Part shown: one piece after another, positions 8,401-28,400 of the stretch
Layout of the letters: every line of letters starts with the position of its first letter
Numbering within the stretch: position 1 is the stretch's first letter
DNA from: Halieaceae bacterium
GTDB taxonomy: Bacteria > Pseudomonadota > Gammaproteobacteria > Pseudomonadales > Halieaceae
Assembly: GCA_024224435.1 (NCBI GenBank)
Contig: JAAENL010000539.1
Location: forward strand, 1-55,563
Direction: 5' to 3'
DNA length: 55,563 bases
Made by a program: the position numbers and the translations under genes
The notes under the pieces: generated by a model
The model's input: only the letters and a program-made list of their open reading frames with translations
Databases searched by the model: none
What the model was told of the DNA's origin: nothing

Positions 8401-11400
8401 TGCTCGTTGGTGATCCGCTGAACGACCAGGCTTACCTCTTATACGGTCGTACCGACACAATCGGCGAGGGCTGGGACCTCAGTCTCCTCGCCCAGTCTGG
8501 CCAGTCCGCTTTTGGTGTTACGATGAGCAGTATGGAAGGGAAGAGCGGGCTAGGGGTGGCATCGGCGGGTGATGTTAATAACGATGGCTATGCTGACCTC
8601 TTGATCGCGGATGCTAACAAACTGTACCTTGTGATGGGTCGCTCTCGCTACACGCCGCAGATGGTGGATATACGCACACAGGCTGCTGCCGTCTTGCCCT
8701 TTGATAGCCTGGGAGGGGCGGTGGCCACCGGCATTGGTGATGTCGATGGCGACGGACTGGCCGACTTCGTGACAAGCGATCCCGCCGGTAGTTATGGGGC
8801 GCAATCCAGAGTCTATCTCTTCAGGGGTTCAACCAGTTATCGCACCGCCTCTTTTTCATTTCCACAGCAGTCCCTGGATCCACTAAATGATGCTATCGCC
8901 AGCTTCGTAGGTGACAGCATGGTTGGAGCGCAGATTTTGGCGTTGGGCGATGTCAACCTCGATAGTTACGCCGATTTCTTATATAGCAGTGGTGATGCAC
9001 CTCGCCTTGTATTTGGGCGTGCCGATGCTGGTTGGGGACACAATAATGGTGGTGATCGCACCCTCAGTTATAGCCCACCGGCATCGGGTGTCCTGACCGC
9101 ACCTGGGGATATCAATGCCGATGGCTTTGCCGACCTGCTGTTGGGTACGGCTTCTGGTGATGCTTATCTCATCTACGGCGCTGATTCTCTCGCGGCCATA
9201 CCTCCGATCGCGGCCACGATAGAAGGAATCGAATCCGCGGCCTCGGCGCCGTATGCAACAGGGGCTGACATCAATGGCGATCTCTCCGCCGATTTGCTGG
9301 TTTTACCCACGGGCGTTGGCAGCGGCATAACGACCGCTTCACAGACTCCCTTTGGCCGTATGCCTCACCTGGGGGCTTCTGCCCTTCCCGTCGGCGCTGC
9401 ACCCCGGCATCGTTCTGACCCGAGCTTGCTGCTTGCTGAGGTCGGCGCTAAGGTATCGACCACGTACGTCGACGACGACTACTGTTCTCTGTGTGAGAAT
9501 GATGGACGTAGCTGGGGGGTAGATGCTTTTGATGATATCGCAACTGCTGTCACGAACACGCTTGCCAAGGGTCAGGTAGTGATTATGCCCGGCCTCTACC
9601 AGGCATTCGAGATCACGAACAGCGATCTCACAATTCAAGGTGTAGATCCTGACGCAGTGATCGTAGATGGCGGGGGCGGCGATTATGTCGTTCAGATCAA
9701 TCAGGCCAATGCTATCAGCCTCGAAAACCTGACCTTACGAAACGCGACGAAAGGTATCAGCCTTGTCGATGCCCGCACTGGCGATTGGTTTCAGGACCGT
9801 TCCCGTAAGAACGAGTTGCAGGGATCCGTCGCCTATGACGTAACCTATCCGATCTATACTGATCGCAGTAGCGCCCTGGAAGTGATAGACAGCACACTTG
9901 TCGGTACGACTGCAGCTGATGAAATTATATTTGTTGACACGACGACACCAGACCCTTCGCTTACGCCAGCCTGGTCTACGCTGGCAAACATGAGCGGGTC
10001 AGATCAGGCGCTTGGAGGTTTGGCAGCTACAGACGACTACATCTATCAACTAGGGGACTCTCTGTACATGTATCGCTACCATACCTTCTCAGATTCCTGG
10101 TCTCAGCGCGAAAAGTCACCCTTTGACAAGAGCTTGACCTATGATTTCAATCTAAGCGAAGGGGGAGGTGGCGCCATCTATGTGTATGCAGTAAGCAGTG
10201 GGAAATACGCTACCTATACGTTTTCCCTTTTCAATGACCACACGAATAAGTGGACAACACTATCAAACTTCCCAGACTATAAATCCCAAGACACCTACGG
10301 TCCTGAAATGGTATTCGATGGCGAGGGCACGATCTACGCGCTCGTCCTGCAAAATCAGTTTTATGAATATGACATTGCCACCGATGTATGGACGCAGATC
10401 GGTACAACGCCTGATCGGTTCGAGCTTGGCAATGGCGCTGCCATCACCTACGCTGATGGCGCCGTCTATGTGAGCACCGGTGAAGGTGATATCGCCTACA
10501 ATGAATTCTACAAATATAATGTACAAAGAGGCAAGTGGTCGTTTTTGCCTAACCCGCCGACACCAATGAGATATGGAGCCGACATCCAATGGGATGGACT
10601 GGATACCATCTATGCTGTCGCTGGGGGCGACAGCAAGACGATGCTGAGCTACAGCATCGCTCGCAAGAAATGGACACAATTGTCAAATACATTAAAGCCC
10701 ATCGGTCCTGATGCAGGCTTAACCCGGCAGGATACCGCGCTATACGTTCACTCAGGTAGTAGCACGAACGGCAATCGCTTCTTTTGGGATTACAGCCCCG
10801 TCGGCATCAATGCTGTGAAACTGGATCTGGATAGTGTCGCTCTGGTAGCACCTGTAGGAACGAGTTCACCTCAGTGGCTGAATCTAAACGACAATCTATA
10901 CGACTATTACTACCAAACGACAGATTCGATGTGGGTGGGGGGAGATAGCTGGTCACCCACGCCTGATTCCACACCGATTGCATTTGCGGATGCCCAGTTC
11001 CGGGATCCGAGCGATGGTGTATACAGAGTGGGGGCGGGTACAGCGCTTTCAGCCGGCTATCACAGCTATCTGGCCAGGTCCTATGTATCTACTGACTACT
11101 GTTCGGCATGTGAAAATGATGACTTCACCTGGAGAGTAGATGCCTTCGATTCGATCCAAGAGGCCATTTACAGCGGCGCCGAGTTGATTCAAGTACGCCC
11201 TGGCATTTACAGAGAGAACTTCTCTCTGGTCAGTGGTGTGGATGTCGTAGGCGCAGGTGGCGAGACAACCATCATCCAACCCCCTTCGAGCGCTTACCAG
11301 GGTGCACTTGTCAGCGCTGAAGGAACCAACGGCATTCGATTGGCTCATCTTAGCCTGGATGGTTCAGATACGGCGGTGGGTTTCCGCATCGAAGATGGCG

Positions 11401-14400
11401 CAGGCCATGCTTCGCTGGAGCGCGCAATCGTACGAAACGCGGTGACTGGCGTGAGTGTCAATGGTGCAGAATCGCAGATCGAAATGGTCAATAACACCGT
11501 TGTCAACAATGAGGATGGAATCGTTGCCTCGGACTGCGGTTCCATCGACATTCGCAACACGATCATTGCCTATCAGGAAAATGCCGGCCTCGATTTGGCT
11601 AGCTGCGCTACAACTCAGTTACATACTTACAATCTCTACTGGCGGAATGGCATAGATCTCGTCAGCGATGGTTCTAACATCGCCTCGTCCACATCAGGTG
11701 AATTATTCGATGAACCGCGCTTCGTTGATCCTTCGATTCACAACTACCAGTTGCGGGCGGATTCGGCGGCCAGAGCAAAAGGAGATCCTAGCGATCAAAC
11801 CTTGCCAGGTTCCGGTGCACGCATTGATATCGGCGCCTGGCAATATGCCCAGGCAGCCTTTTATGTAGACGATGATTTCTGCGAATCTTGTGAGAACAGT
11901 GGCCTTGACTGGCAGGTAAATGCCTTTGATACGATTCAGACAAGCATCGATGCTGCCTCGACGACCATGGCTGCCGCCCTGGGCTCGGGCGCTCCTGTGA
12001 CCTACACCATCGGTGTAGCAGCAGGCGCCTATAACGAAAACATCAGTCTGCCTAGTTATACCTATTTGCTGGGCGTGGGTGCTGATGAAGTGACCCTAAT
12101 TGGCGCCGGAAGTGGCAGCGTTGTGAGCATTGGCGGTGCTACAAGAGTGATGGTCTCAGGAATGACCATAACTGGCTCTGGAACGTTAGATGGGGACGCC
12201 GGCGTTGTTGCGCTGAATGCATCCAGTTACGTGACGATTACGCGTAATATCCTCACCGGAAACGCCGACGGCATACGCGTCGATAGCGGTGCAAGTGGCA
12301 CGGTTATATTCAATACGATCGTCGATAACAGCGCAGCAGGCGTGTCGACTGAAGGTACAGGAACCTGGTCGACCGTGCGGGACAACATCCTGGCAGGTAA
12401 TGATGCCGGTCTGTCCTCCCTAAACGGTGGAACCCTGTTCAACGACTACAACCTGTTCTACGACAACACTGCTAACTTCTCTCAAAATCCCTACGCATTT
12501 CTCGGCCAGAGACCCAATGACATCCTCAATCAGGATCCTCTGTTTGTCAATCCCGGGCAGGGTGACTATCACTTACAGCTCGGCTCACCCGCATTAGATG
12601 TTGCCGATGAGCTGGCGCCGGTACCAATAGGGGGAGGGAGCAGAGCCGATATGGGCTATTCGGAGCTGGTAGCCGTTCCCCTAACCCTGTTGTTGGGCGA
12701 ACTTGGGATTAGCGCCGCACAAGGAAATTCCGGCGTCGCCTCTGCTCAAATCGGTATCAGCCACGTAATCAGTGAAGGCGTAGCTATTGACGAATCGATA
12801 CCCTCTTCCTGGTCTGACGCAACATTGACAACCGTAGGAGAGACTGGTTCATACTGGAACGCAGATGTCAACCCTGGGCCAGAAGATGGTCTTTATCGCA
12901 TCTATACAAGAGGTACAGATGTGGCCGGAAACCAGGAATCAGGCCGGTACAATGGCACTTTCATTGCCGATAGCGCCCTTCCCGTTGTGAATCTGCTATC
13001 GCCTGCAGGAGATGATCCTGGCGGAGCTGCAGCTTATCCGCTGGAGGCCGAAGTCAGTGATTATGTGTCCACCGGTTCCGCAGAGATTTTCAATATCTCT
13101 TCGATCTATTTTGAAGTGAATGGTGAAGTGATCAGGGGCGAATGGGCTTCAGATGGTTGGGCTGAAATCAGTGGTTTGCCCCGGCGCTTCCAGGCTGTTA
13201 CTGAACTTGACATTGGAGACTATACGATCATCGCCTATGCCGTCGATCGGGCGGGCAACATCGGCCAGAGCAGTTCCAGCACTATAACAAGTTCGCCCTC
13301 CGAAGATGTGCTCACCATTAGCCGGCCTGCACAGGGTCAGGCGATTAACTCAGATATCGTTACAGTTAGCGGCTATGTCAGGTTCGCAGCGCCTTCGACC
13401 GAGTCAAACGTCACTATCTCTGTAAATGGTCAGGCTGCGGGGACGGCGTTGTTGGCAGAACCTGGCGCCACACTCACAGCATGGTCGGCAGAGCTCATAT
13501 TGCCCGGCGACGGTAGTCACACCATCAAAGCCGAGGCATTTTCCGATCCAACAACAGGTGAGCCAGCAACAGGGAGTGAAGAGATTTCGGTTCTGATCGA
13601 TCAGGTCGTCCCCATCCTTAGTATCGATACGCCAGATGAGGGAAGCACCGTCTATCAGAGTTTCACTTTGTCGGGGACGGCGAGTGATGGAGCGGGTAGC
13701 GGCATCGAATCCCTCGAGACCAGCAGGGATGGAGGTTTTTCCTGGACAAAGCAGATTATCGGACCCAGTGGAAACTGGAGTGTCGACTGGGAGGTCAGTA
13801 TACCTGAGGACTATGTGAGCCATCCGATTCTAGTGCGAGTCAGCGATGCTGCCGGCAATGAGATGACGCGATCTCGCCAGATCATCATCGACAATCTGGG
13901 CCCGGTGGGCTACACACCCGTGAGCACAAACCCCGCGATTGGCAGCTATATCGACACCCTTACACCGGTGAATATCAGCTGGTGGATGCCCCAGGATGGT
14001 AGTGGTGACACGACAATGTATTTCGCCACAAACACCTTATCAGATACGATACCTACATCTAAGATCCTCGCCACCGGTTATCAGGGCCCCTTTACTACAG
14101 CTGGTACCTGGTATTTCCATTTGATGGTCGAAGATTCGATCGGTAATCAGGACCAAAAGTCGTATGGTCCATTCTACGTCGAAGACGCCCAGCAATCGAC
14201 CCTGAGTCTGAGCGCTGCCTCACCTGACTGGACCCAATCCATCATTATCGACGGCAAGCTCGATATCGATAATGGAGAATGGCGAATCGACACGGAACAA
14301 CTGGACACCGATCCTCGTAGTCAAGATCCTCACGCGCTCTTTGCAGCCTGGGACAGCAGTAACCTCTATCTAGGATGGCAGGAGGCTCATATAGGTTTGC

Positions 14401-16127
14401 ATGACAGCCTATGGTTCTATCTGGATACAAAACTCGGCGGCACGATTCAGGCGGTGCATGCCGGTAATCTCATATTGCCAATGCAAGCGGACTACGCCAT
14501 CGAGATCAGCAGCAGCACTGAAGGGATGATGTATCGCTTTGATGGCGATTCCTGGGTCGAAATGGGCGCCGGCAGTTTTGACCATGCACATGACGCCGGG
14601 GCAGATACCGAAATATCGGTGCCGCTGGCGACTATAGAGGTTCAGCAAAGTCTGGGCCTACTGGCCTTTTCATTCGACGATCGTAACGCCAGGATCACGA
14701 CTGTTTTCCCCACCGCCAACCCCCTCGCTACCTGCGACGATAGCGGTTTCTGTCCTGATTGGTCCGACGTTTACCGGTGGCAGAACCTGGGGCGCGACGT
14801 AGTCCCGAACGAAGGCCAACCTCGCGGACACTATGCAGAGATATCACTGTCGAGCCCACAAGGTCACCAGACAGGCCGGGGACCGGGGGATATCCTTGAA
14901 TATATCGTAACCGTGCGACATCTTGATGACAAACCCATTGAGAACTTAATTTTGCATTTAGACGGTAGCATCGGGCTGCTTTTCGAATCGTTGCAATATG
15001 AATCCGATGTCACTGCACAGGGAGATCGATGGTGGGTGAACCTGGAGAATCTGGAACCGTTTGAGACGCGGGTGATGACTCTAACAGCTAGCCTGGCCTC
15101 TGACCTGACTGCCATTGACTACGTTACAGTGACGGCCGAGTTGGACCTGCCTGTACCTTTAAGTGAACCAGTGATTGCCCGTTCTTCTTATGTACATCGT
15201 GTGGATGGTCAGCCGCCCACGACCTACATCGATCTGCCAGTTGCGGCGTTGCCATCAGGCTCGCAGATCGTCAGGGGTACGGCAACAGATCGTGATGGAG
15301 GTGGTGTGCAATCTGTTGAAGTACGGGTTGACGATGGCTCCTGGTTGGCAGCCGAGGGTTCTGTGGCGTGGTCGGCGGCGATTGAGGTACCCTTATCAGG
15401 CGCATTTGAACTGGCTGCACGGTCTCGGGATACGCATGGCCATGTAGGACCCGCTGCCTCCCTTCAAGTTCTCGTGGATGCACAGGCGCCAGAAGCATCC
15501 CTGGCACTCAACCGACCTGTTCTGGCCGGACGAATCGGCCATCTGGAGGGAACCGCTATAGACTTCGGCGGATCGGGCGTTGCAAGTGTACAAGTACAGG
15601 TCGATGGGGGCGCCTGGATTCCCGTATCCATGCCGCTGATTCCGGGCGGTGAGGGCGTTGTGCAGTGGCATTATAATTGGATCTTCGCCAACAGGGATGG
15701 CGTTGAATCCACGCTCTCCGTACGCGCCTCAGATGCTGCAGGGAACGTCGGACCAGCCTCCTCTCCGCAAGTTGTGATTGCGGATAGCGTCAAGCCCACC
15801 TCCACTATTCTCCAACCTCAACCGGGATCGGAAGTCGATCCTGATGGATTTACTATCTCCGGCATGGCTGACGACGGATATGGTGTTCGATCTGTCGAAG
15901 TCAGCATCGACGGTGGCCGCACCTGGTCTTCTGCTCAACTAGGTGCATCTCAGAATCAGATCGCCTGGTCTCTTGACATAGCCATGCATGATGATGTGCC
16001 CGAACAGCTAGTCATCCTAAGCCGAGCAATTGACAAGGCTGGCAACCAGGAAACGCTAGGAGCACCAACTCGAGTAACAGTAACTCAGATCGGTATTCCC
16101 ACGTGGTTACCACTTGTCGTAAGGTGA
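2418..16127 (+). CDS. Giant multidomain surface/secreted protein GP1 (about 4570 aa)
   Basis: Uninterrupted 13.7-kb ORF. Signal-like N-terminus RDRLIRILLITAAIVISAIVYIVPGSVLRA (start ATG 2418 or GTG 2445). Approximate modules: LppX/LolA-like 2590-3230; TM pair 3315-3473; Ca repeats 3640-3960 and 6455-6890; hydrophobic core 5570-5780; FG-GAP repeats 8160-9310; beta-helices from 9460, 11080 and 11860; Kelch-like insert 9960-10800; CBM9/DOMON-like 14240-14830; many Ig-like repeats (xDxAGN); ends TWLPLVVR. The ORF is secure; the function is unknown. Confidence 0.9.
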   Translation: MLSHIEAHVVRDRLIRILLITAAIVISAIVYIVPGSVLRADDSTFAAEIDRALTLVREQGRYRLSATVAQELIPRPAPHMIGRQGASLTMYLNGEISSPDHARLLWEFTTDDPSNLTQVELILEGSETYIGSDSEWLRVQDPLGLAVPATDSFTLLDAIEKVKKLPSKDTAGGLVRRFSFELDSERYAELMRDRTQELVSQSLGKDVILQPDPGFWQQTGSGEVWIGADGLPHRMYLTLLLPEVTSDYDARLEMQLDYHDFGEAIVTLPEPILGAPDADHLLSEPRETTGAILNLSAGDGVTASFVLAAILILAIVLFSIRSGTKRRVRATVVMVTILSLVTAFPLQVGAAGLSRQRMSVGLTLPEALTQLGLMQTDQEPVGRTDVTQASASTDVTDCAVLPDGIAPDEDYDADGISNLTENCLGTSYRDADTDSDSISDSDELKGFTVGAQTWTTNPLMRDSNLDGMDDFAEWSPSWATSSPSTLDVDADGVANAWDDDNDGDGVIDDLDISPYAVLPYKSSFNLSASKPGNNQHKNTYVYVDLMVQPSDAAHLRYFTTPLDWPYDDKGQIRDYDNSDEDITLVPMLEFETPTRPSLTSQYGLIVVDPDTPGNPYRVLAPLAPTGAQGAIDAFKTRVAFTDGESVTGLEMNDIKVGWLGIVTSDSQTVTWVRKRKNTGSYKFVKQTSISSEDVVATAYYEPSFRIVGMNIVETQDIEVAVFGAPNAPETVADDSTPDEGREMYNFIAGLNVSYLYNLQPDLPTIVDRFTNAATAQVERWGVESDLAVKYNTFAHQDQALAATTMTDTVSLLDGNYATSRKPILALAYEGIIGTLSLEQEGSVAVNGNTVSIDLAGNSLAKLRQVQISQYEWSGGSWSALSMADALSDLDNRYPAQAGAASWRDFRYLYLSYYGALSNYIEKDGVTLVGQQADDQAVFDWLSQPSQNSLPGFVQTAYKLDSLNGLKATYGELEGWRTWQESFVTESIDGLDTFLVVVMQALSYTSPEVYAVTPYWGEGASAKKLERAIDASTGTIEKGSSLQQMADQAYRTSTIGVIMSVMSIWSQYNNGSKDTSNLQQDVERAEAIATSIALVLLLVLTIADFAFGGGLLGAILGFSTLDSVSNAIGVKINLQSVFSNLAKSISGAISNFSMYSQLASTNPVTSGALSMTLGDENKGIVLGNSLSLATDYRATIVKGPGKKKWNWRKSRDGKFDDVKSSSAYAEWKYDGSTGSVTADTPTYRPDGCTNDASNQERTCKSSVSITITPEEAVRDLGIRLTTVLNYSLRYQSCFGVNSVYSRCKAKTTSGAEPRESDTTAWNDATNTVYVDILPVTLGDLWDWQEIDNHDYDGDSLPDDQESGLGTSPTIWDSDGDRLSDNYEYLNRNNRLSGSDPLDYDSDDDGLSDRQELLLGTSAGVPDTDGDGLKDGEEACYRSLDGSRAGGWIVSALGSGDGFEYYVCSNPLEADYDNDSMTDIQEKTAGTSPFAPNTAPRLSLTISQPVFNFGVSTLVVLGPGELLDQEFSLNNVLSQPLTTTLSLCALSGAFDSVTVIAESSNSGYTLPAATSGSVGNEDCTYWDLSQSPLYSGEEVSVQLQASTATDISSGTIQQSLSLPYIDPTDHSAQQVKISKNIVVDVDEPQSVFVMPVEGEVISGISYVIGGTAYDATTWVQSVEVAVDGGAWQTAAGADTWSWTWTLPTDGIYTLSARASDIAGNVESVATTRSVTIDNTAPAASFTNIADGDILSGITLNSQGGATISLQGNATDLLSEVADVAGLQVIQLSVDAGPWEAIWNPRRDPVDTSPWTHNWLVNAGASGSHTLSVRAIDAVGQIGDAEIIDVILDLLPPLSSVSNYTSQLQGNTTSTLRGYIDDTGNVPLPPRPQLLEGAIDSLSDATIWIQADRVGDLQDANAAWIGDFNADGLADAAVGLPKDNSGDGQIVIIYGAAGDWPVPPQSYALSSSPSSVIASGGSNLGEILALAGDVNGDGLSDLLVGDPLNDQAYLLYGRTDTIGEGWDLSLLAQSGQSAFGVTMSSMEGKSGLGVASAGDVNNDGYADLLIADANKLYLVMGRSRYTPQMVDIRTQAAAVLPFDSLGGAVATGIGDVDGDGLADFVTSDPAGSYGAQSRVYLFRGSTSYRTASFSFPQQSLDPLNDAIASFVGDSMVGAQILALGDVNLDSYADFLYSSGDAPRLVFGRADAGWGHNNGGDRTLSYSPPASGVLTAPGDINADGFADLLLGTASGDAYLIYGADSLAAIPPIAATIEGIESAASAPYATGADINGDLSADLLVLPTGVGSGITTASQTPFGRMPHLGASALPVGAAPRHRSDPSLLLAEVGAKVSTTYVDDDYCSLCENDGRSWGVDAFDDIATAVTNTLAKGQVVIMPGLYQAFEITNSDLTIQGVDPDAVIVDGGGGDYVVQINQANAISLENLTLRNATKGISLVDARTGDWFQDRSRKNELQGSVAYDVTYPIYTDRSSALEVIDSTLVGTTAADEIIFVDTTTPDPSLTPAWSTLANMSGSDQALGGLAATDDYIYQLGDSLYMYRYHTFSDSWSQREKSPFDKSLTYDFNLSEGGGGAIYVYAVSSGKYATYTFSLFNDHTNKWTTLSNFPDYKSQDTYGPEMVFDGEGTIYALVLQNQFYEYDIATDVWTQIGTTPDRFELGNGAAITYADGAVYVSTGEGDIAYNEFYKYNVQRGKWSFLPNPPTPMRYGADIQWDGLDTIYAVAGGDSKTMLSYSIARKKWTQLSNTLKPIGPDAGLTRQDTALYVHSGSSTNGNRFFWDYSPVGINAVKLDLDSVALVAPVGTSSPQWLNLNDNLYDYYYQTTDSMWVGGDSWSPTPDSTPIAFADAQFRDPSDGVYRVGAGTALSAGYHSYLARSYVSTDYCSACENDDFTWRVDAFDSIQEAIYSGAELIQVRPGIYRENFSLVSGVDVVGAGGETTIIQPPSSAYQGALVSAEGTNGIRLAHLSLDGSDTAVGFRIEDGAGHASLERAIVRNAVTGVSVNGAESQIEMVNNTVVNNEDGIVASDCGSIDIRNTIIAYQENAGLDLASCATTQLHTYNLYWRNGIDLVSDGSNIASSTSGELFDEPRFVDPSIHNYQLRADSAARAKGDPSDQTLPGSGARIDIGAWQYAQAAFYVDDDFCESCENSGLDWQVNAFDTIQTSIDAASTTMAAALGSGAPVTYTIGVAAGAYNENISLPSYTYLLGVGADEVTLIGAGSGSVVSIGGATRVMVSGMTITGSGTLDGDAGVVALNASSYVTITRNILTGNADGIRVDSGASGTVIFNTIVDNSAAGVSTEGTGTWSTVRDNILAGNDAGLSSLNGGTLFNDYNLFYDNTANFSQNPYAFLGQRPNDILNQDPLFVNPGQGDYHLQLGSPALDVADELAPVPIGGGSRADMGYSELVAVPLTLLLGELGISAAQGNSGVASAQIGISHVISEGVAIDESIPSSWSDATLTTVGETGSYWNADVNPGPEDGLYRIYTRGTDVAGNQESGRYNGTFIADSALPVVNLLSPAGDDPGGAAAYPLEAEVSDYVSTGSAEIFNISSIYFEVNGEVIRGEWASDGWAEISGLPRRFQAVTELDIGDYTIIAYAVDRAGNIGQSSSSTITSSPSEDVLTISRPAQGQAINSDIVTVSGYVRFAAPSTESNVTISVNGQAAGTALLAEPGATLTAWSAELILPGDGSHTIKAEAFSDPTTGEPATGSEEISVLIDQVVPILSIDTPDEGSTVYQSFTLSGTASDGAGSGIESLETSRDGGFSWTKQIIGPSGNWSVDWEVSIPEDYVSHPILVRVSDAAGNEMTRSRQIIIDNLGPVGYTPVSTNPAIGSYIDTLTPVNISWWMPQDGSGDTTMYFATNTLSDTIPTSKILATGYQGPFTTAGTWYFHLMVEDSIGNQDQKSYGPFYVEDAQQSTLSLSAASPDWTQSIIIDGKLDIDNGEWRIDTEQLDTDPRSQDPHALFAAWDSSNLYLGWQEAHIGLHDSLWFYLDTKLGGTIQAVHAGNLILPMQADYAIEISSSTEGMMYRFDGDSWVEMGAGSFDHAHDAGADTEISVPLATIEVQQSLGLLAFSFDDRNARITTVFPTANPLATCDDSGFCPDWSDVYRWQNLGRDVVPNEGQPRGHYAEISLSSPQGHQTGRGPGDILEYIVTVRHLDDKPIENLILHLDGSIGLLFESLQYESDVTAQGDRWWVNLENLEPFETRVMTLTASLASDLTAIDYVTVTAELDLPVPLSEPVIARSSYVHRVDGQPPTTYIDLPVAALPSGSQIVRGTATDRDGGGVQSVEVRVDDGSWLAAEGSVAWSAAIEVPLSGAFELAARSRDTHGHVGPAASLQVLVDAQAPEASLALNRPVLAGRIGHLEGTAIDFGGSGVASVQVQVDGGAWIPVSMPLIPGGEGVVQWHYNWIFANRDGVESTLSVRASDAAGNVGPASSPQVVIADSVKPTSTILQPQPGSEVDPDGFTISGMADDGYGVRSVEVSIDGGRTWSSAQLGASQNQIAWSLDIAMHDDVPEQLVILSRAIDKAGNQETLGAPTRVTVTQIGIPTWLPLVVR

Positions 16128-16436: not shown

Positions 16437-19400
16437 ATGTACCATACCCGTCGATTCCTGCTAATAATTATATCTGTCATGGTCACATTGGCCATCACAG
16501 GTGGTCTGGTTTTAGCGCTCGATACCACGGATGAAAGCAAGCCCAAGGACGCGCTTATCCAGGCTTTTGAACGCGCCCGAGATCAGGGGAGCTACCATGT
16601 CGTGGCTGACATCGAGCAAACGCTTGTACCCCTTGCCACTCTATCAAATCTGGGCAAGCGAGATGAGACTTCCTCGATGCGTCTGTTGGGCGATGTCGTT
16701 CAGCTCACACAAATCGATGGCTCACAGGTAACCAGCGCCCGCATGCAATTTTACGCTAGGCAGGATCAGAGCCCGGTCGAGCTGCTACTTTCTGATAATG
16801 AGGCCTTTGTGGGTTACAAAGGTCGCTGGAAAAAGGTCGATGATCCCCTGGGGGGCGTTGCACCCGGCGGCGATTACATGGGTTACCTAGTGGCTGCAAA
16901 GGATGTGACCGAGATCGAGTCGGTACGGACTGCCGAGGGAGATTTCCGCCGTTTTGCCTTTACCCTGGATAGTGAAGCCTACGCAGCCTACCAGCTAGAA
17001 CGTGTGCAAAAGAGCATGGCCGGACGCCTGCCCCATGGTATCGAGTTGCAAGCCAATCCCACCATCCTTGGTATGAGTGGCCAGGGAGAAGTCTGGCTGG
17101 ATAGCCGTGGTCTGCCGAGACGTCAGGTTATCGATCTGAATATCCCCAGGGTTACACATAGTTATGATGCACAGGTGGGCATGATCGTCGATTTCTCTCG
17201 CTTCGGCGATCCGGCGCCTGCTCTTGATATGCCACAACCGATTGGGCCTGATGGTGCCTGGTCTTTGCCTGAATCTTCATTGCAACAATCCTCAGACTCG
17301 GCAAACGCGGCAGATACGCCGCCACTTGTCGTGGCCTCCCTCGAGCCATTGGAGCGAACCCTGGCGCCGCTGGCCTCAACCGTGATCCCCGGCCTGATCG
17401 CCTTGCCCCTTTTGATCCTGGCATTGTTGCTCATCCGCAGGCGCCGAACCCTGTACGCGGGTGTGGTATCCACATTGATCGTGATGATGGTCATTCAGCC
17501 GCTGTTACAGGCAGGGCAGTATGCCATTTTTGCAGGATCTCGCGCCGAAGCCTCCTCCTTTGCCCAGGCATTGCAGGATATCGACGCCCTACCCAGTCCC
17601 GTTCAGAACGAGCTTGCCATCGATCGGCAGACAGCGGCGATGTTGAGTGGACAAAGCGTCAGTGCCACCGGTCAGCCTGACTGCCAATCGCTCTATGTCG
17701 ACGCCGGCAGCCAACCATCGGGCGACGAGGATGGGGATGGCTTGAGTAATCAGATCGAATGGTGCCTGGGCACCGACTATGCCGATGTCGATACGGATGG
17801 CGATACTCTTACCGACACGGTCGAACTGATAGGCTTCAACTATGGCGGTCATAACTGGACAGCGGACCCGCTGGAGATAGACAGCAATTTAGACGGGATG
17901 ACTGACGGTGAGGAGTGGGAACCTGCTCTCACCGATTCGAGCTTCACCGGCGACGATACCTTTACCGACAAGGACGAAGATGGCATTCCCAATCTTTGGG
18001 ACGAAGACAACGACAATGATGGCGTGCCAGATGGCCTGGATAATTCACCCTATCGGGTCATGCCCTATCGACCTTCATTTGACGTGAATGTCACCGGCCA
18101 CTCTCCGGATACGATTGTCTACGTGGATGTACAGGTTCAGCCGGAAAACGAAGCACATTTGCGTTACAGCCTCACTTCATTGGATTGGCCAGAAGATGCG
18201 ATCGGCCAGATCCAGGATCTGGACTCATCAGTGGACGACTTGATTTTGATCCCGGTCCTGTCAATCAATAGCACGATATCACCCACACTCGCATCGCAGT
18301 ACGAGATCTTGGCCTCGCATGTGAACGCAGAAGATATCAGCCAGGGTTTCAGCCTGTGGGTTCCGCTTCAGCCAGTCGTAGAATCTGGCAGTATTTACGC
18401 GTTTAGCGCCAGGCTCGCTTTCAGTTCAGACGAGGCAGATGCTGGCATCGATCTCACCGAGGGTAGGATTTTATGGATGGTCAAGGCCACATTGGATTCC
18501 TGTTTGTCTGGCGATGCTTCTAGTTGCGATAGTGTGACATCAGAAGACTCCGTGATCGCCAATTACTACGACGGGCAGATTCGCGTGAGTGGCCTGCAAG
18601 TCTCCGAATCGAAAGATGTTCAGGTTGGTTTGTTTGGCACCACAGCCCCGCGTATCACGACTGATGACAACGTCGACGACGAGCAAAAGGTGATGTTCAC
18701 ACTGATATCTGCCGGGCTGGCCGGAACCTATCTCAATTATGAAAATCCCGATCTGAACCAGATCGACGCCAATTTTTCGGATAGTAGCGCTCAGGCGCCC
18801 TTTACTGATACATGGGGTATCGATCCGGCTATCATGAAGGTCCAGGTGGATGGCTATGACCATCGGGACGAGGCCCTCGCCACAACCACACAGACCAACA
18901 CCGTAACCTTGCTGGATGGGCTCTACATCGATCTCCACGGCGTTTCCTGCACGATCAATACAACCGGCCAGTACACGCCCACGATCGCCACAGCCTATCA
19001 GGAGACGTCTGGGTCATTGGATCTAAGCAGCCCGCTGCTGACGATCACAAATGGCGATCCTGCGGTTACGTCGGCGAGTCCCGTTGCATTCTCTATCCCG
19101 TTGGGCGATGCCACGATTTATAAATGGCGCCAGGTTCAACTGGGAAGCTATGGTTGTAACATCGACGACAGTGGAAACGCCAGCTGGAATGAGTTAAACG
19201 AAGCGGCTGCTCTGATCGATCTGAACAATCGCTATCCGGATCAGGCACAGGCTACCTGGTACTACATGGTCCAGCAGATCTTCCTTATATACAGCGGTGG
19301 TCGTAGCTCGATGTTCAGCGTCAACGGCGCACCCACAGATCCCAATGCCGTTGATGCACCAGGCGATGCAATGAGCTGGTTTATAGACAATGAGACGGTC

Positions 19401-22400
19401 AACATGCCCGACTATGTGCGGAAAGTCTATTCGCTGGATGGGCTCTACACCAATGTCAATGCCAGGGGTATCCTCAGCGGCATGCGTGATTGGGCCGACG
19501 ATATGGCCATGGTGATGGGGGCCGGTTCAGCCGCCCAGGTAACCAATGCAGCCAATTTACGATTCATCTTGAACACTTTCTACGGTCTCGGGAGGATGGT
19601 CAAAGCGACGATCGTTTACTTTAAGGGAGGTGCGAGTCTTACAAATCAAGCCCTCTCTGGACAGCTTACAGGCTCATTTGCCAATGATCAATTGGGTCTG
19701 ATGAACGATATGAGTGAATATAGCTATGTCGATGATCTTTCAAGTACTTCGAGTTCCACTTTTCTCGACGAAGTGGATGATCTCAGCGTGCTAGAATTTG
19801 GAGACGACATACCTGATGGCTTGTCGCTAAGGAGTAACACGACGATCCAATCCGAAAGCGAATTTTTCAGTTCGATGGATGATTCAATACCCTATTTCGA
19901 TGACGTCATGGATAACGTACCCGTTGGTACCGGCCAATCTGCAACAGCTGAAACGGCTGCCTCACAGTCGAGTTCGATCAGCAAGCGCGCGCTCGCCGTG
20001 GCAATCATCATGACAGCTGTCTTTATCACCGTAACCTGGGTGATGTACAGCGCACAGGCGAAGAGCCTACAAGGTATGCAGAAGGATTACGCATTGGCCC
20101 AGGCGATCGCTGCCACGATTCTCTTGGTATTACAGCTGATCATCAGCCTGATTCTTATCGTATTCGCCTCTTCAGGGGTAGGGACGCTTATCGAACTCGC
20201 TATCTTTCTCATCGTCTATATTATCGTGAGTGCAATTACAGGGAATTGGAATCCCTTACAAACCTACAACTATCTTACGAAGTGGCTGGCCGATGCGCTC
20301 ATCGATTTCAAGCTGCTCTCGGATATCCCTAAGGATGGCGTCAGTACGGGGGATCTGAATTTCACGATGGATCAGTTCTCGACGACGACCAACGGTCCCT
20401 TGCCCAAGGCCTGGTATCAAATTACAACCACGATCAACACGCGCCTGTCTGGTGATGATTCCAGTAGCTGGGCCTATGTACGCTGGCAACAACCGGACAG
20501 TTCGCCTTGGTATCTGAATAATTACTCTGCTAGTAATAGTCCTACTAATACATTTGAAAAAGACATCTCTGCCGGTCAAGAAAACTGCAGCGACATATCC
20601 GGTGATGAACGAACCTGCATGACAGAGACTAGATTGCAGTTCCAACCTACGGCTGCCGGACGTAACACTGCCATTCCCTTCGCCAGTACATTTGAAGCGA
20701 ATCTGCAATATAAGAAATGCTGGTTGGGCGATACCGGCAAATTTGTCTCCGGCGGTAATAGTTGCTCTAAAGACCATCAATATGCCTATAGCAACGACCC
20801 AGCAACGGCCATCGACCTCGCAACCCAGTACTTCTACCTCGATGTCCTACCGGCTTCGCTGGACGAGCTGTTCAACTGGGATGCTTACGAACCGCCTACC
20901 AGTACGGTTGATACCGGTGATGATTCGAGATATCCAGATTTTAACCTTGATATCGACAATGATGGCTTGACCGCCAGTTCGGAAAGCAGTCTTGGCACCG
21001 ACGACACTCTTTGGGATAGTGACGGCGATGGTCTCAGCGATGGTTTTGAATATGTAAACAGCGGCTATGGTGTCGATCCCACTATGGCGGATAGTGATAG
21101 TGACGGCCTCGACGACAAGGATGAATATCTGTATGGCACATTGCCTGGTCTGGCAGATACCGATGGCGACGGCCTCAGCGATGGCGAGGAGATCTGCCGC
21201 ATCGACGAATCTGGCGCACCGGTCGGTGGCTGGAAAGCATTTCAAGTAGGCGGTTATCAGATCTGCTCTGATCCGCTAAAGGGCGATGCTGATGGCGACG
21301 GTTTAATCGACAGCCTGGAAATGGAAGCAGGTCTCAGCCCCTATGCCCCAGATACAGCCCCAAGATTGGTACTCAGCCCAATGCCGAGTGTTTTGGCGAA
21401 TTTCGGACTGGTCTCAGTCCTCAGGGCTGGCGACCCAATGTCTGTTACGCTCAGGCTTTTCAATTCGACAGCCAATACGATCGATCAGCCGATAACACTT
21501 TATTACGAAACGGCGGATATCGAGGCACTGACGGTGCTAAAACAGTCAGGATCGTTGGGATACACTCCTCCCTTGCCCAATCCCGTCGCCGGCGGCCTGG
21601 AATGGGATACGGCAAATAATCCGCTCGATGCTGCAGAATCGCTGACATCGACATTAGAGAGTGCAGTCTTCTCCGACATCACCACCTCGCAAGTAACTGA
21701 GATGCAAGCGACTGCTTTGTATACCGATGTCGCCACAAACCAGCTAAAGACAGTCACCGATACCATCACCGTTCTGATCGACGAGGATGCGCCTAGTTCC
21801 ATTGTGACGGTACCGGGCAATGGCAGTGCGATCAACGGCAATGCCTTCGCGGTAGGCGGTGTAGCCAGCGATCCCACGTCCTGGCCGTCAATTGTAAACG
21901 TAAGGGCGACAGGAAGCGGCTACGACAGTGGCTGGCAAACTTCAGAAGGAGCGAACAGTTGGGTTTGGACGTGGACACCACTGCCGGACGATGGCGTCTA
22001 TACGATACAGAGCCAGACAATTGATTATGTGAACAATACCGAATCACCTGGCGCGGGCGTTAGTGTCATTGTTGACAATACGGCGCCTGGTGCTGGTTTT
22101 ACTAACCTGACCGATGGCCAAGCCCTGTCCCGCATCCGCGGCAATCGCGTAGCCGTGCAAGGGAATGCGACAGACCTGTTATCAGGAGCGGCGCAAGTGG
22201 CGGGCCTTCAGACCATTCAACTCAGCATCGACGGCCGGCCCTGGGTCAATGTAGAGAATTACCCTTCCACCCATCCAGCGACCGCTACCTGGAACTTCAA
22301 TTGGACGGTTGATGCCTCCTCATATGGTCAGCATACCCTGGCCATACGGGCAATAGACGCTCTAGGCCAGGTTGGTGACGCCACCGAGATCGATGTGATC

Positions 22401-25400
22401 ATCGATACGCTGGAGCCGACAGATATGTGGTCGAATTACCAGGCCAATCTGGTGGCGGGGCAGGCTTTTGAGCTTTTAGGGCATGCAGACGACGAGGGTA
22501 ATGTGCCCTTGCCCGCCCGGCCCTACGAACTGGAGAGCTTCATGGACTCGGTTATCTCAGCCACGGTGCTGCTAATGCCCGAGAGCTATACGGATACCCA
22601 GGGTATGACTGTCGACTGGCTGGGTGATGTAAACGGCGATGCCCGCGCCGATTTCGCCGTGGGGATGCCTGCTCAGAACATCGATGGTCAGGTCGCTGCA
22701 GGCCGGGTTGCGGTGGTCTATGGTTCGCCTGGTGGCTGGCCTATACCTTCCGACGCGGTGGCTCTGGCTGAAACCACAGCTTCCTTCGTGGGCTCGTTCG
22801 CTGGTGTGCAGCTCGGACAGGTGCTAACGCCAGCCGGCGATGCTAATGGCGATGGTCTCAGTGATTTCCTGATCGGCGATCCTGTCAATGTCCAGGCCTA
22901 TCTGGTCTATGGCCAGGCTACTGGACTGGCAAAGGACTTCGATCTGGCCGATCTCGCTCAAAGTGGTAATGGTACCAAAGGTAAGATCTTTTCGGCCAGG
23001 CAAGGCCAGGTTGGCAACTGGATCTCATCTGCCGGCGATGTCAACGGCGATGGTTTCGATGAGATTTTGGTAGGCGTCACGGCCCTGGGCAATGGTAACG
23101 GTGCTGTTTACCTGGTACAAGGGCGCACAGCCACCAGTACCTCCGGTACTCAATTCGTTGATACATTGAGTGGCGCTTCGGCAGTCTCGATCGAGTACTT
23201 CCAGCTAGACAATAATGGCGCTGTTGCCACGGGCGTTGGCGACATCAATGCGGATGGCTATTATGACTTCGTGATCGCGGATCCGAACAACAGCTTTGGC
23301 GCCGGCCAGGCTGCGGTTTATCTTTTCTTAGGACCTGTCAACTGGCGGAAGTCGAGTGAGACGGGCGCGCTCAATCCTCTGAACAGTGCCAACGCCAGTT
23401 TCGTTGGCGACGTCGGCGCAGCTGTGGGTTCAGAGGTTGTGGCTTTGGGTGATGTCAACGGAGATGGTCTACCTGACTTCGCCTACTCGAGCGGCAATGC
23501 GCCGCGGGTCGTGTATGGCAGGAGTTCGGGTTGGAGCATGGGCATGAGTGCTGACGTCAGTTTCGATGGCTATTCTCCACCTCCGAACAGTTTTATCGCC
23601 GCACCAGGTGATGTGAATGTAGATGGCATCAACGATATCCTGCTTGGCGCCACGGGTGGGGGTAGTCGGGCGTACCTGGTGCACGGCTCAGCCGATCTGG
23701 CCACGAACCAGCCAGTTCAGGCGCAGATCAGTGGTGTAAGCAGTGCGGCCTCGGCCCCTTACGCCGCCGGCGCAGACCTGAACTGCGATCTCTCTTCCGA
23801 CCTGTTACTTGTCCCCACCGGCGAGTATACGGTGCAGGCAGCCAGTGGCAGCGCCCTTTCCTTGCGCGCAGGCGCTGTGGCCATGGATCAACATGGCCGT
23901 TGGATTGGCCCGGCGCCTCGCCCACGTGGTTTAGGTGAGTTGCCAGCCCGGAGTTCACTCGCAGGCGCGGCCACACAGCAGATGCTCTCTGCTACCGGCT
24001 TGCAAAGCCCTGCCGGCGATGATGCATTAACAACAAGTGCTTTGGCCTTCCGTCTGTACGACAACAACATCGGTGACTGGGTGACAGACGCTGCCATCAC
24101 CGGCGATTGGGATGGCGACGGCCTCAGCGATGTGGCAGGCTGGACCGGTTCAGCCTGGAGAACCTGGCGCGCAAATGGCTTGAATGCTAACGCAGTACAG
24201 TTCACAGAATACACGAATAACATGACCTTATCAGAGAAAGTCGGTGCCACCATACTGCAGGGCGATTTTGATGGCGACGGATTGGATGATCTGGCCGCCT
24301 GGGATGGCAGTGCCTGGCAGTTCGAGCGCGCAACAGGCGCTTCGGATGGCAACTTTAGCTTTGCCGCCATCCCAAGTGATCTAGGCGCTCTGTCTGGCGG
24401 CGATTCAAATAAGATGTTTGTTGGCGACTTCGACGGCGACGGCAAAACCGATGTGGCAGGATGGGATGGTAGTGTCTGGGCGACGTACATCTCAAGTGGC
24501 AACAGCAGTGCCTTCAACTTTACAACAGTCAGCAACAACCTGGGCAGCCTGGTGTCAGGTGATGCCGGCTCGCTGATCAGCGGCGACTTTGATGGGGATG
24601 GTATGTCAGATATCGCATCCCGCAATTCAGATGATAGCAACTGGGTTGTCTGGATCAGCGGCGGCGTCTCTGCTGGGACTTTGAGCTTCCAACAGGTCAC
24701 AGATAATTCCCTGGGTTATGCCATGAATAGCACAGTCTCACGCGCGGCTGCTGATTTCAGCGGCGACGGGAAGACGGATGTACTTGCTCTTCTCGACACT
24801 GATTTCTTCGCCTGGTTGTCACAGGCTTCGCCCGGCAGCGGCGCCGTGCCCTTCCTCCAGATTCACGCCAATGCCAAACAGTTCAGTGGCAGTTTCGTCG
24901 ACGACACATTGATCGGCGATTTCGACGGGGATGGCAAGGCAGACTATGCCTCGCTTAATGTCACGGGCGATGGCTGGCGCTTCCAACTGGCGGGCCTGGC
25001 AACCGTGCGCTACGTGGATGACGACTACTGCCCAGCCTGCGCCAATGATGGCCACAGCTGGGACATAAATGCCTTTGACAACCTGCAATCTGCGCTGGAT
25101 ATCGCCTGGTTTGGCGACTCGATCGAGGTGGCTGCGGGCGTGTACAGCTCGGCGGTGATCCATGCGGGCCAGGATTACCTGACGCTGCGCGGGAGCGATC
25201 CGGATGCGGTTTTCCTGGACGCGCAAGGGGGCGCCGGTATCACCATCCTGCCCACTGACGAAGTCTCTAACACCTATCCCAACATCGAGGGCGTAACCAT
25301 CCAAAATCTGACGATACGAAACGCCTTAACCGGCATCAAACTGAACTATGGCGGACAGGTTACCGCCGACCCTGCTGTGAATGATGCGCGTAATGTGGTG

Positions 25401-28400
25401 ATCAAGCATGTTCTGTTCGACCAGGATATCGCCGGCAGTACGGCCATTGACGCCTTTCTTTCCGCTCTATGGCTGCGCCACAATACCCTGGTTTCCAATG
25501 CCTCAGGCGTTACACTGGTCAACAATAACTCCGGCCCCCTGACACAGAATTTCATTTTCTTACAGGACAACCTGTTCGTGGCCTTACCAAATGCAGCGCC
25601 CCTACCATTCTGGTGGAACGACAGCAGTAGCCAGATCCCCGCAATAACGCTTAGCAATGGCTTTGCCAGTCAAAATGGCGCCGACGGCGATTGGCAAAGC
25701 TCGCCGACCGGCACGCAGATGACGGTGCAGGATGCGAAGTTCCTCAATTCGGTAGACGGATTATTCAGATTGAAATCCGGTTCGGCAGCGATCGCACAAG
25801 CCAGCAATGGCAAGGACCAGGGGTACTACACCTATCGAGCTCCGGTCTATGTGGATGCCACCTACTGCGAGAACTGCGAGAACGACGGCCGCAGTTGGGG
25901 TGTGGATGCGTTTAATAGCATCCAGGGTGGGATTGCCAGCGGTGCTCAAAGCGTGCTAATTGAGCCAGGCGAGTATCGTGAACGCATTTCCCTGGTCAAT
26001 GGTGTGAAAGTGTTCGGCTCCGGCGCCGGCCTTACCATCCTTGCACCGCCTGATGATATGGGTGGCTATCTGGTGGGTGTAGAGAATGCCAGGGAGACTG
26101 CCCTGGCCTTGATCACGCTGGCGGGTGAGGATAAGGTCAATGGCATCACGGTTGACAGCGAAGGCGACGTCAGTCTAAAACGACTGATCGTGCGCAACAT
26201 GGGCACGGCGGTTAATATCAGCGGCAGTACAGCCCAGGCAACGTTGATCAACGACACCATAGTAAGCAACGAGAATGGCGTCGTTGCAAGCAGCTGTGGC
26301 AATGTGGATATACGCAACAGCATCCTGGCCTTCCAGCAACAGGTGGGCTTGAGCTATGAAACGAATGGCTGCCCAAGTACCCAGACCTTGTTACATAACT
26401 TCAACGCCTACTGGCGCAATAGCAATGATTTCGAAATTGATGGAACAGCGGTTGACCAACCTGGTTCAGGCGAGATCTTCGCCGATCCACGCTTTAGGGA
26501 CGTGAGCAAAAGTGACTACCGTCCTCTTGGCGACTCACCTGTGGTGGATGCCGGGGATCCCAGCGATCCGGCGCCGCCTGGCAGTGGAGTACGGGTGGAC
26601 CTGGGATATGCGCAGGCGGCAGAGGCATCGGTCTATGCCAGCAAAAGCTACTGCGAACAATGCCTGAATGATGGTTTAGAATGGCAGGTCACAGCCTTTG
26701 ACACGATCCAGGACGCGGTGGACAACATACCCGATCTGGCTGGCATGTGGACGGTAGGTGTGGATGGCGGCGAGATCGGCGCCATGGTCTATGATGAAAA
26801 CGTCGTCCTGAAGAGTGGCGTCCGCCTGGTAGGGAACGGCGCTGAAACCACCATTATCGATGCAAACAATAGCGGTTCAGCGCTCACGCTCAACGGTGTG
26901 ACCAACGTCGAAATCTTGGGCTTTACTATTACGGATGGTGGACAGGACTTCAACGACGCGGGTATCCTGGTATCGGCCGCCTCGAACAGGATAACCATAA
27001 CCAAGAACATCATCGGTGGGCTTTCGCCCCTCAGCGGAGTTCCCGGAAATGGCAATGTAGGCGTCCTCTTCCAGTCGGGTTCGAGTGGCCAGATGACTTT
27101 TAACACGATTGCCCAGAACTTCAACCAGGGCGTCGTCGTCGCAGACCCCGATACCTGGCTGCACGCGCGATACAATATCATCGCCCAGAATGATGTGGGC
27201 TTCGACGACACAGGAGGTGGTCAGATCTTTAACAGCTATAATCTAGTCTACAATAGCGACTCTAGTTGGTGTGCCACCTGTGTGGATTACGTCGGAAGTG
27301 TATCATCCGGTCTGGGTGAAATCAATCAGGTTCCCCTGTTCACCGACAGCGATAATGGTAACTTCAAATTGACTACTTCATCTCCGGCTGTAGATGCCAT
27401 CCCCAAGGGTGAGTACGCCGCGGTGGCCATTGGGGGAGGCGCCAAGGCCGATATGGGATACCGTGAACTCCTCGCAGTTCCGGCTACCCTTCTCCTTGGC
27501 AAACAGGGTGACTCCTGTGGCCTCGGTAGCGCCGGGATTTCGTCAGTACAGGTCGGTCTCGTGCACGTGACAGATGCGACGCAGAGCCCTGATTCGACTG
27601 TACCAGCTACTTGGCAAGGGGCGGCGCTGAGTAGCGCTGGCCAACCTGGCTCCTACTGGACAACTACGATTACCCCTGACCAGGGTGACGGCCTTTACCG
27701 GCTGTATAGCAAACCCAGCGACGGCGTGAATAACACACCCAACTTAGCTATGGACTGGTTCCGTTCCGAATTCATCGCCGATGGCGCCGCTCCTACAGTC
27801 AACCTGATCGAACCTGCCGATGGCACGGCGACCAGCGCTCCGGCGATAACCCTAAGTATGGATGTCAGCGACTGGGTGCCGACGGGCTTTACGGGTGAGA
27901 GCATATATAATGTGGCGGGCGTCTATTTCGACGTGGACGGCAACGTAATCACAGCCACGCAGTCGAGTACAATCCCTTCGACTGGCGGTGCGCAGCGATA
28001 CGAGCGGCAGATCGCTCTGGAGAACGGCACCCACACGATCATCGCTTACGCCTCTGATCAGGCAGGAAACATTGGCCAGAGCAGCCTGGCGCAGATGACG
28101 GTGGTAACAACACAAAATGAAGCGGCCCTGACCAATCCCGCGCCCGATAGCGCGGTTGCCAGTGCAAGTGTCAACCTGGAGGGCTTCGTGCACTACCAGG
28201 ATACTTCTGGTGATGGGCAGGTCGAGATCCTGGTCGACGGCGTGTCCCAAGGAATGGCCGCATTATCCGACACCTCGGCCCAGGATGGTAGCTGGAGCAA
28301 AGCGGTAACTCTGGCAGGCGATGGCAGTCATACTATCACAATGCGCGCCAGTCGCACCGCAGGCATGACGGCCGCCAACGATACGGTTTCTACAATCGTT

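What the first reader, a model, noticed from the sequence alone, without database searches (positions are those of the whole stretch)
19987..20300. Odd number of hydrophobic helices mid-protein creates a topology conflict; hairpin resembles translocator/pore domains
Seen: GP2 has ALAVAIIMTAVFITVTWVMY / YALAQAIAATILLVLQLIISLILIVFA-SSGVG-TLIELAIFLIVYIIVSAITG. GP3 (34515-34850) has the same three helices, GP1 (5570-5780) three weaker ones with an FGGG turn, and GP4 (53900-54445) five with an FTGPIG turn. Both flanks carry extracellular hallmarks (Ca loops, paired Cys), and the helices lack the poly-Arg loop seen at the N-terminal TM pair. With 3 or 5 true TM passes, one flank would end up cytoplasmic. 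Established: colicin pore domains, the diphtheria toxin T domain and T3SS major translocators use buried hydrophobic hairpins with small Gly-rich turns. Inference: the helices are sequestered in the soluble fold and insert later.
Basis: partly seen in the sequence, partly recalled or inferred. Interest (0 to 1): 0.8.

Follow-up and report, generated by a model that had tools for sequence, protein, structure and literature searches.

The report
Membrane-inserting module in giant Chloroflexota proteins
The three greasy helices are real and sit inside a conserved, unannotated ~950-residue module shared by an uncharacterised family of giant bacterial proteins, where they are likely kept folded away on a predicted cell-surface stalk and would likely punch into the membrane of a neighbouring cell, which would make this a new type of contact weapon in Chloroflexota.

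Summary
The helices are real (GP2 aa 1184-1268). They belong to a conserved ~950-aa module (new-looking core, hypervariable stretch, three-helix unit, beta-sandwich) between two TSP3 calcium-repeat clusters. At least 204 clusters at 50% identity match it, mostly Chloroflexota giant proteins; this contig is probably Chloroflexota DNA in another bin. AlphaFold's pTM of 0.70 implies both flanks share one rigid body, so the excursion must cross a membrane an even number of times or never. Yet 23 of 65 members with three strong helices lack a fourth candidate, and counts run 0-7 (odd in 55 of 87). H3 carries an acidic residue in 78 of 87; K/R cluster before H1. The second N-terminal helix looks like an internal signal peptide, which would put the module at the tip of a C-anchored stalk. 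Best reading (0.45): a sequestered, colicin-like alpha-helical insertion unit aimed at another cell's membrane. Main rival (0.30): an ordinary anchor or channel in its own membrane. Burial was not seen. No homology to colicin, LCT, diphtheria-T or T3SS families was shown; colicin Ib gives only a weak, post-hoc positional match. No cargo or immunity gene was found.

The parts
16437..31010 (+). GP2, 4857-aa giant protein carrying the finding
16437..16523 (+). N-terminal signal peptide (aa 1-29; predicted by eye from hydropathy)
   Evidence: KD19 2.65 at aa 8
16542..17231 (+). Conserved ~230-aa N-domain; very weak LppX/LprAFG (LolA-like) similarity
   Evidence: 2 of 24 members, best E 0.002; 0 of 28 longer fragments
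17379..17507 (+). TM pair with poly-Arg loop; second helix is signal-peptide-like (Pro355, A-x-A downstream)
   Evidence: Pro 63 of 67; Arg334 55, Arg337 53; Ala370 46, Ala372 36
17682..18056 (+). TSP3-type calcium-repeat cluster 1
18057..19520 (+). Conserved ~490-aa beta/alpha core, confidently predicted, no clear fold match
19527..19985 (+). Hypervariable stretch (45-189 aa in family, 11.5% mean identity); begins with a low-confidence amphipathic helix, rest pLDDT<50
19986..20060 (+). Helix H1 (aa 1184-1208), basic residues before it, conserved Trp1201 and Phe/Tyr1204 at its end
   Evidence: (W 73 of 87; F/Y 80 of 87)
20073..20168 (+). Helix H2 (aa 1213-1244), Ala-rich start, conserved Thr1227
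   Evidence: T 65 of 87
20175..20240 (+). Helix H3 (aa 1247-1268) after an uncharged Gly/Pro turn; carries Glu1253 (20193-20195); most other members have Asp at 1260
   Evidence: (G1249 76 of 87; D1260 58; E1253 13)
20253..20300 (+). Helix H4 (aa 1273-1288), amphipathic by eye
20301..20879 (+). Beta-sandwich with Cys pairs; generic Ig-like/adaptin-ear matches only
20943..21356 (+). TSP3-type calcium-repeat cluster 2
21357..31007 (+). Stalk and binding modules: Ig-like, FG-GAP propellers, beta-helices; ends in an xLPLIxx motif (30981-31007)
2295..16127 (+). Paralogue GP1 (4610 aa); helix unit 5568-5789 with one strong helix; Kelch propeller in tail
31084..45474 (+). Paralogue GP3 (4796 aa); helix unit 34519-34803
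46371..55562 (-). Paralogue GP4 (>3063 aa, 5' end off the contig); five-helix unit 53931-54458; LamG tail

Best explanation
GP2 is a giant protein, likely displayed on the cell surface, whose three conserved hydrophobic helices are likely held out of its own membrane and would likely insert into the membrane of a contacted cell to form an alpha-helical pore. Shown: the helices, their position between a 490-aa core and a beta-sandwich, the hypervariable stretch before them, the acid in H3, the basic patch before H1, and variable binding modules behind them. Inferred steps: (1) Sec exports the N-domain, then the second N-terminal helix restarts export as an internal signal peptide and is cleaved. 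(2) The C-terminal motif tethers the chain, leaving the module at the far tip of a ~3,200-aa Ig/FG-GAP/beta-helix stalk. (3) Tail modules bind a target surface. (4) The H2-H3 hairpin inserts, possibly triggered by protonation of the H3 acid. (5) H1 crosses with its basic N-terminal side going inward, dragging the variable stretch to the far side while an amphipathic helix provides the return crossing. This is the arrangement reported for colicin Ia (four spans plus a 68-residue translocated segment; PMC2229546 abstract) and would resolve the odd count. The target (bacterium or grazing protist) is unknown.
For: Both flanks are inferred outside. Signal-peptide-only members (P0143, P0154, P0160, P0042) start directly at the repeats and core. 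C-termini end in xLPLIxx (22 of 40 proteins of 3000 aa or more, truncated ones included) or in TM plus Arg tail (P0051; the L054 downstream frame). pTM 0.70 over 981 aa exceeds what the 505-aa core alone could give (0.51), so core and beta-sandwich share one frame (inference); one structural alignment spans both flanks (1gyw_A, model 178..948). No fixed pass number: counts 0-7; 23 of 65 three-strong-helix members lack any upstream 19-mer at KD 1.3, and 12 lack one at 1.0. GP1-type members have one strong helix, P0042 none, and Omnitrophota P0143 has charged H1/H2, all with the same flanks. Acid in H3 in 78 of 87, exactly one in 73. Helices are 25-30% Gly/Ala/Ser. The variable stretch is net positive in 50 of 87 while the core is negative in 87 of 87. 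The module is the invariant part: tails differ, P0160 carries a ~950-aa repeat insert in the core, and genomes hold up to 8 or more copies in arrays. The family profile aligns colicin Ib's channel domain hairpin-to-hairpin at 11.4 bits, 7th of 2030 scoring sequences behind five family members and one repeat-region hit; 0 of about 300 shuffles in each of three schemes reached it.
Against: Burial was not observed. H2/H3 are as hydrophobic as permease TMs (medians 2.37/2.54 vs 1.61-2.87) and should stop Sec translocation. Basic-before-H1 and aromatic-after-H1 patterns fit an ordinary inserted protein equally well. 32 of 87 members have an even count. GP2's own variable stretch is acidic (5 K/R, 24 D/E). 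The Glu1253/Asp1260 swap is essentially one clade event (quick tree). The colicin match is post hoc and fragile: colicin E1 -0.8 and A -11.7 bits, reversed E1 5.9, a locally shuffled Ib 11.1, profile-profile probability 0.2%; pyocin S5 (E 0.14) ranked below Na/K-ATPase (E 0.05). No enzymatic cargo domain and no immunity-like ORF between GP1-GP3. Cleavage of the internal signal is untested.
Confidence: 0.45

Rival explanations
1. The unit is inserted in the producer's own membrane with an even number of crossings: either the H2-H3 hairpin alone with H1 at the interface, or a marginal upstream helix plus H1-H3 with the variable stretch cytoplasmic. The protein would be a giant adhesin or receptor with a third anchor, or a channel or signalling module.
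For: Helix hydrophobicity equals true TMs. K/R before H1 exceed those in the H1-H2 loop in 66 of 87 (fewer in 6), the positive-inside pattern. Conserved Trp/Phe at the end of H1. 18 of 87 have four segments and 35 of 65 three-strong-helix members have an upstream 19-mer at KD 1.6 or more. AF2 confidence is high at the H1-H2 loop and low at the H2-H3 turn, as for a bundle hanging from the body. No cargo or immunity gene.
Against: No fourth candidate in 23 of 65. Members with zero or one strong helix or charged helices keep both flanks. The putative cytoplasmic stretch has no conserved motif (11.5% identity). The protein already has N- and C-terminal anchoring signals.
Confidence: 0.3
2. The helices never enter a membrane. 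They form a hydrophobic core or oligomerisation bundle of a purely adhesive surface appendage, comparable in role to giant Chloroflexota filament proteins.
For: Tails are adhesin-type modules. P0042 does without hydrophobic helices. A 6,596-aa protein of a different (DUF11) type builds grappling-hook appendages in a Caldilineae member (10.1101/2025.08.19.671072, section 9 read).
Against: 50-60 consecutive nearly uncharged residues, an uncharged tight turn, one mid-helix acid and sided charge distribution are membrane-type features (established knowledge).
Confidence: 0.13
3. The unit inserts into a neighbouring cell's membrane but serves to join cells (fusion, junction or content exchange with kin or a host) rather than to kill.
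For: Two-sided membrane attachment is possible if the N-terminal TM pair is not cleaved. No toxin cargo or immunity gene. Gly/Ala-rich helices.
Against: No structural match to solved fusogens or viral proteins stood out (inconclusive). Members occur in diderm Omnitrophota and Planctomycetota. Many divergent copies per genome suit target variety more than self-junctions.
Confidence: 0.12

Closest known systems
Colicin Ia/Ib and pyocin S5 channel domain (Pfam Colicin PF01024)
   Same: Basic amphipathic helices followed by a hydrophobic hairpin with a Pro/Gly turn. The family profile aligns colicin Ib 396-606 over the variable stretch and H1-H3 with hairpin on hairpin (11.4 bits). Four spans plus a translocated segment (PMC2229546 abstract) would solve the parity.
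   Different: No Pfam hit; colicins E1 and A do not score; profile-profile probability 0.2%. Here the unit is internal to a giant signal-peptide protein with a large domain on each side, H1 is strongly hydrophobic, and no immunity or lysis gene lies between the window's genes.
Large clostridial toxin translocase (LCT-T, Pfam TcdA_TcdB_pore PF12920)
   Same: Hydrophobic helical region attached to an extended beta scaffold in a giant protein, one small plus two larger hydropathy peaks, and a functionally important acid (PMC6978384, passages read).
   Different: An LCT-T homologue ranks at background (212 of 1024; 30 of 1596). PxxG at the turn in only 9 of 87. No upstream effector or autoprotease; Sec-type signal present.
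Diphtheria toxin T domain and T3SS major translocators
   Same: Hydrophobic hairpin with small-residue turn; acids in or near the hairpin (recalled).
   Different: No Pfam, PDB-sequence or fold match. No T3SS context in the window.
Giant Dockerin/TSP3-type proteins of Omnitrophota and the DUF11 grappling-hook protein GhlA of Litorilinea
   Same: Giant, repeat-rich, surface-associated; TSP3 repeats in the former (10.1101/2023.11.21.568195, passages read). One family member is from Omnitrophota.
   Different: The passages read do not describe this core or an internal helix unit; GhlA is a DUF11 string without signal peptide (section 9 read).

Membership tests
Pore-forming colicins (PF01024) | Significant match to the Colicin pore profile | tested here: not met
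   No hit at E<=1 in 25 family proteins, none in GP1-4 at E<=0.01, 0 matches in G000
Pore-forming colicins (PF01024) | Amphipathic basic helices followed by hydrophobic hairpin | tested here: met
   (pattern and positional alignment to colicin Ib only)
Pore-forming colicins (PF01024) | Ten-helix bundle fold burying the hairpin | tested here: inconclusive
   Variable stretch has pLDDT<50; fold search returned only generic two-helix hairpins
Pore-forming colicins (PF01024) | Pore domain at the C-terminus with adjacent immunity gene | tested here: not met
   Unit is internal; no ORF of 100 aa or more between GP1, GP2 and GP3 (gaps 309 and 73 nt)
Pore-forming colicins (PF01024) | Voltage-gated channel activity | not testable with these tools
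   needs bilayer recording
LCT-like translocase (PF12920) | Sequence match to the conserved translocase | tested here: not met
   0 candidates in G000; homologue L062 at background
LCT-like translocase (PF12920) | PxxG(L) motif | tested here: not met
   PxxG at the turn in 9 of 87; PxG 23, GxG 20, other 35
LCT-like translocase (PF12920) | Upstream effector and autoprotease | tested here: not met
   No such Pfam/NCBIfam domain in GP1-4
LCT-like translocase (PF12920) | Delivery-domain fold | tested here: inconclusive
   Not listed
Diphtheria toxin T domain / T3SS major translocator | Pfam or PDB sequence match | tested here: not met
Diphtheria toxin T domain / T3SS major translocator | Hairpin buried in a soluble helical bundle | not testable with these tools
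   Model coordinates and PAE not returned; complex prediction not available
Polytopic integral membrane protein | TM-grade hydrophobicity and positive-inside bias | tested here: met
Polytopic integral membrane protein | Conserved even number of passes between two extracellular flanks | tested here: not met
   Counts 0-7, odd in 55 of 87; no fourth candidate in 23 of 65. Hydropathy only; no DeepTMHMM available
LppX/LprAFG (LolA-fold) for the N-domain | Pfam PF07161 match over cut-off | tested here: inconclusive
   2 of 24 members, best E 0.002; 0 of 28 fragments; 0 of 5 genomes with no control ringing

The most novel reading that the evidence does not exclude
These are self-contained contact weapons of monoderm bacteria, each a polyprotein. 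It exports its own membrane-bound LolA-like chaperone, cleaves at an internal signal peptide, and holds at the tip of a wall-anchored stalk a new-fold insertion machine whose acid-switched hairpin opens a colicin-like channel and carries a hypervariable loop into the target cell, with several differently aimed copies per genome.
Probability: 0.22. Interest if true: 0.88.

Novelty: new variant of a known kind. Interest (0 to 1): 0.64.

Why it matters
Filamentous Chloroflexota are described as abundant in activated sludge worldwide (PMC10746286, search listing only). One genome searched holds eight full-length copies of these 12-15 kb genes, yet the shared module has no Pfam, NCBIfam, PHROG or PDB annotation. 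If it inserts into other cells, it would be a new contact-dependent antagonism or anti-grazer system and a new scaffold for membrane insertion that passes through Sec despite TM-grade helices, which bears on how secreted proteins escape stop-transfer. If it is instead integral, it still defines a new 490-aa fold and a class of multiply anchored giant receptors. The minimal module (~950 aa; natural 1978-aa version P0160) is small enough to express and test.

Full report
Observation. The window holds four giant ORFs: GP1 2295-16127, GP2 16437-31010, GP3 31084-45474, and GP4 46371-55562 on the minus strand with its 5' end missing. The quoted helices are at the stated places. In GP2 they score KD19 2.36, 2.99 and 2.45; a 90-residue window this hydrophobic arose in 0 of 2000 shuffles (GP3 2, GP4 0, GP1 74). 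A count-only test was not significant for GP1-3. GP1 has only one strong helix.

Family and origin. The region between the two calcium-repeat clusters (GP2 540-1497) matches 204 representatives at 50% clustering, of which 150 were listed. 7 of 12 full-length hits carry Chloroflexi or Anaerolineae names. Of 50 loci from species genomes, 44 are titled Chloroflexota, 4 Actinomycetota and 2 Gammaproteobacteria on contigs of 1-3 kb. Single members are named Omnitrophota and Planctomycetota. The window's own bin looks different: 0 of 24 same-genus genomes and 1 of 40 relatives match, and the window's aldo-keto reductase is 72% identical to a Caldilineaceae protein but at most 36% to proteins of two same-genus genomes. 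I infer that the contig is Chloroflexota DNA in a foreign bin; that the bin is gammaproteobacterial rests on a recalled resemblance of its RpoC. A fifth copy lies on contig C406. Other genomes carry tandem arrays; G343 has eight full-length matches.

Architecture. Signal peptide, ~230-aa N-domain, TM pair with Arg loop, TSP3 cluster, 490-aa core, hypervariable stretch, H1-H4, beta-sandwich, second TSP3 cluster, then variable Ig, FG-GAP, beta-helix, Kelch or LamG modules. Mean identity among 87 non-redundant rows (from 114 covering the region) is core 28.6%, helix unit 25.4%, beta domain 21.9%, variable stretch 11.5% at 45-189 aa. The second N-terminal helix reads like a signal peptide: Arg cluster, hydrophobic stretch, Pro in 63 of 67, A-x-A downstream. 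Four members begin with a plain signal peptide in its place and lack the N-domain (P0042, P0143, P0154, P0160; starts not checked on DNA). So the core is inferred to be exported. C-termini end in xLPLIxx in 22 of 40 proteins of 3000 aa or more (its role as a Chloroflexota sorting signal is recalled, and one search did not confirm it) or in a TM helix plus Arg tail (P0051; L054, preceded by LAASG, sortase-like by recall). So the tail is inferred to be outside too.

Parity. An excursion needs zero or an even number of crossings. Counts at KD19>=1.6 are 3 in 37, 4 in 18, 5 in 12, 2 in 9, 1 in 5, 6 in 4, 7 in 1 and 0 in 1; at 1.9 they are 3 in 37, 2 in 24, 4 in 11, 1 in 8, 5 in 6 and 0 in 1. Of 65 members with all three helices at 1.8 or more, 23 have no upstream 19-mer at 1.3, 12 none at 1.0, and 35 do have one at 1.6 or more. 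So a fixed even topology does not fit the family, although it fits part of it. K/R are 13% of the 15 residues before H1 against 4.5% in the H1-H2 loop and exceed the loop count in 66 of 87, which puts H1's start on the inner side of whichever membrane it enters. H3 has an acid in 78 of 87: Asp1260 in 58, Glu1253 in 13, both in one. The shift by seven residues is largely one clade (quick tree).

Mechanism. The simplest account of returning flanks, unstable helix number, a basic variable stretch, a mid-helix acid and a tip position on an anchored stalk is a deployable insertion unit. [quoted passage not shown] After pyocin S5 appeared at E 0.14, colicin Ib aligned over 210 residues, hairpin on H2-H3, at 11.4 bits, above all shuffles (maxima 5.6, 11.1, 7.9) and above 22 AI-2E controls (2.2). 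Colicins E1 and A did not score and profile-profile comparison was negative. This is a resemblance of pattern, chosen post hoc, not homology. The LCT translocase has a similar hydropathy profile (PMC6978384, first part and selected passages read), but a homologue scored at background. The strongest objection is that helices as hydrophobic as permease TMs should halt Sec export; hence 0.30 for an integral protein. One lead on this: three of the four members without the N-domain have the weakest helices (means 0.43, 1.39, 1.55; the fourth about 2.1) against a mean of 2.35 and minimum 1.43 in 70 members with it, and the N-domain has a faint LppX/LolA-like signal. It could be a chaperone in cis; n is four and kin are not independent. 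GP2's own variable stretch is acidic, no cargo domain was found, and no immunity-like ORF lies between the window's genes.

Verdict. A real, conserved feature of a family that eight literature searches did not find described. It is not a member of the colicin, LCT, diphtheria-T or T3SS families by the tests run. It most likely works like an alpha-helical insertion domain (0.45 as pore or weapon, 0.12 as junction), with own-membrane integration (0.30) and a soluble bundle (0.13) as rivals. Interest 0.64.

Noticed in passing
window 1-55563 (G000:C539): The contig is probably Chloroflexota DNA mis-binned into a genome of another phylum: family absent from 24 of 24 same-genus genomes; aldo-keto reductase (208-1221) 72% identical to a Caldilineaceae protein versus at most 36% in two same-genus genomes. 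A tetranucleotide mixture split off 68 of 253 contigs of 4 kb or more, but the split is noisy.
   Followed up: partly
window 17379-17560: The second helix of the N-terminal TM pair looks like an internal cleavable signal peptide, making the gene a possible polyprotein that leaves the N-domain membrane-bound.
   Followed up: partly
L010:8384-9214 (G000:C132): Stand-alone 276-aa copy of the N-domain with signal peptide, apparently truncated; another stand-alone-like version is P0166.
   Followed up: no
L027, L030, L031, L049, L052, L057, L058, L059 upstream of the match: A large (1,080-1,440 aa) divergently transcribed gene of SARP/STAND-regulator appearance (label recalled, not tested) lies upstream of the giant gene (listing partly cut).
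   Followed up: no
L016, L017, L019, L025: A 358-460-aa ORF lies between the first and second giant genes of these arrays; in L016 it has a signal-peptide-like start and hydrophobic end. It is absent from the window's array.
   Followed up: no
L027/L016/L029, L030/L017/L021, L031/L025 and window: Arrays appear to keep an order: a weak-helix GP1-type gene first, then GP2/GP3-type genes, recalling multi-component pore toxins with unequal hydrophobicity (recalled analogy).
   Followed up: partly
P0160 aa ~290-1240; P0154 aa ~270-600: Large FG-GAP-like repeat inserts within the first part of the core, suggesting an exposed attachment point for binding modules.
   Followed up: no
L054:8447-19637: The copy in the named isolate Actinospongicola halichondriae is split by one frame change after the second repeat cluster (sequencing error or real); the downstream frame ends in a sortase-like anchor.
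   Followed up: partly
P0122 aa ~800: A member that jumps from mid-core straight to Ig domains, lacking the helix unit and beta-sandwich; could be an assembly chimera or a natural deletion.
   Followed up: no
L010:1-7593: Cluster of three radical-SAM-like ORFs and a GH3-like ORF (labels recalled from motifs) on the same contig as the stand-alone N-domain.
   Followed up: no
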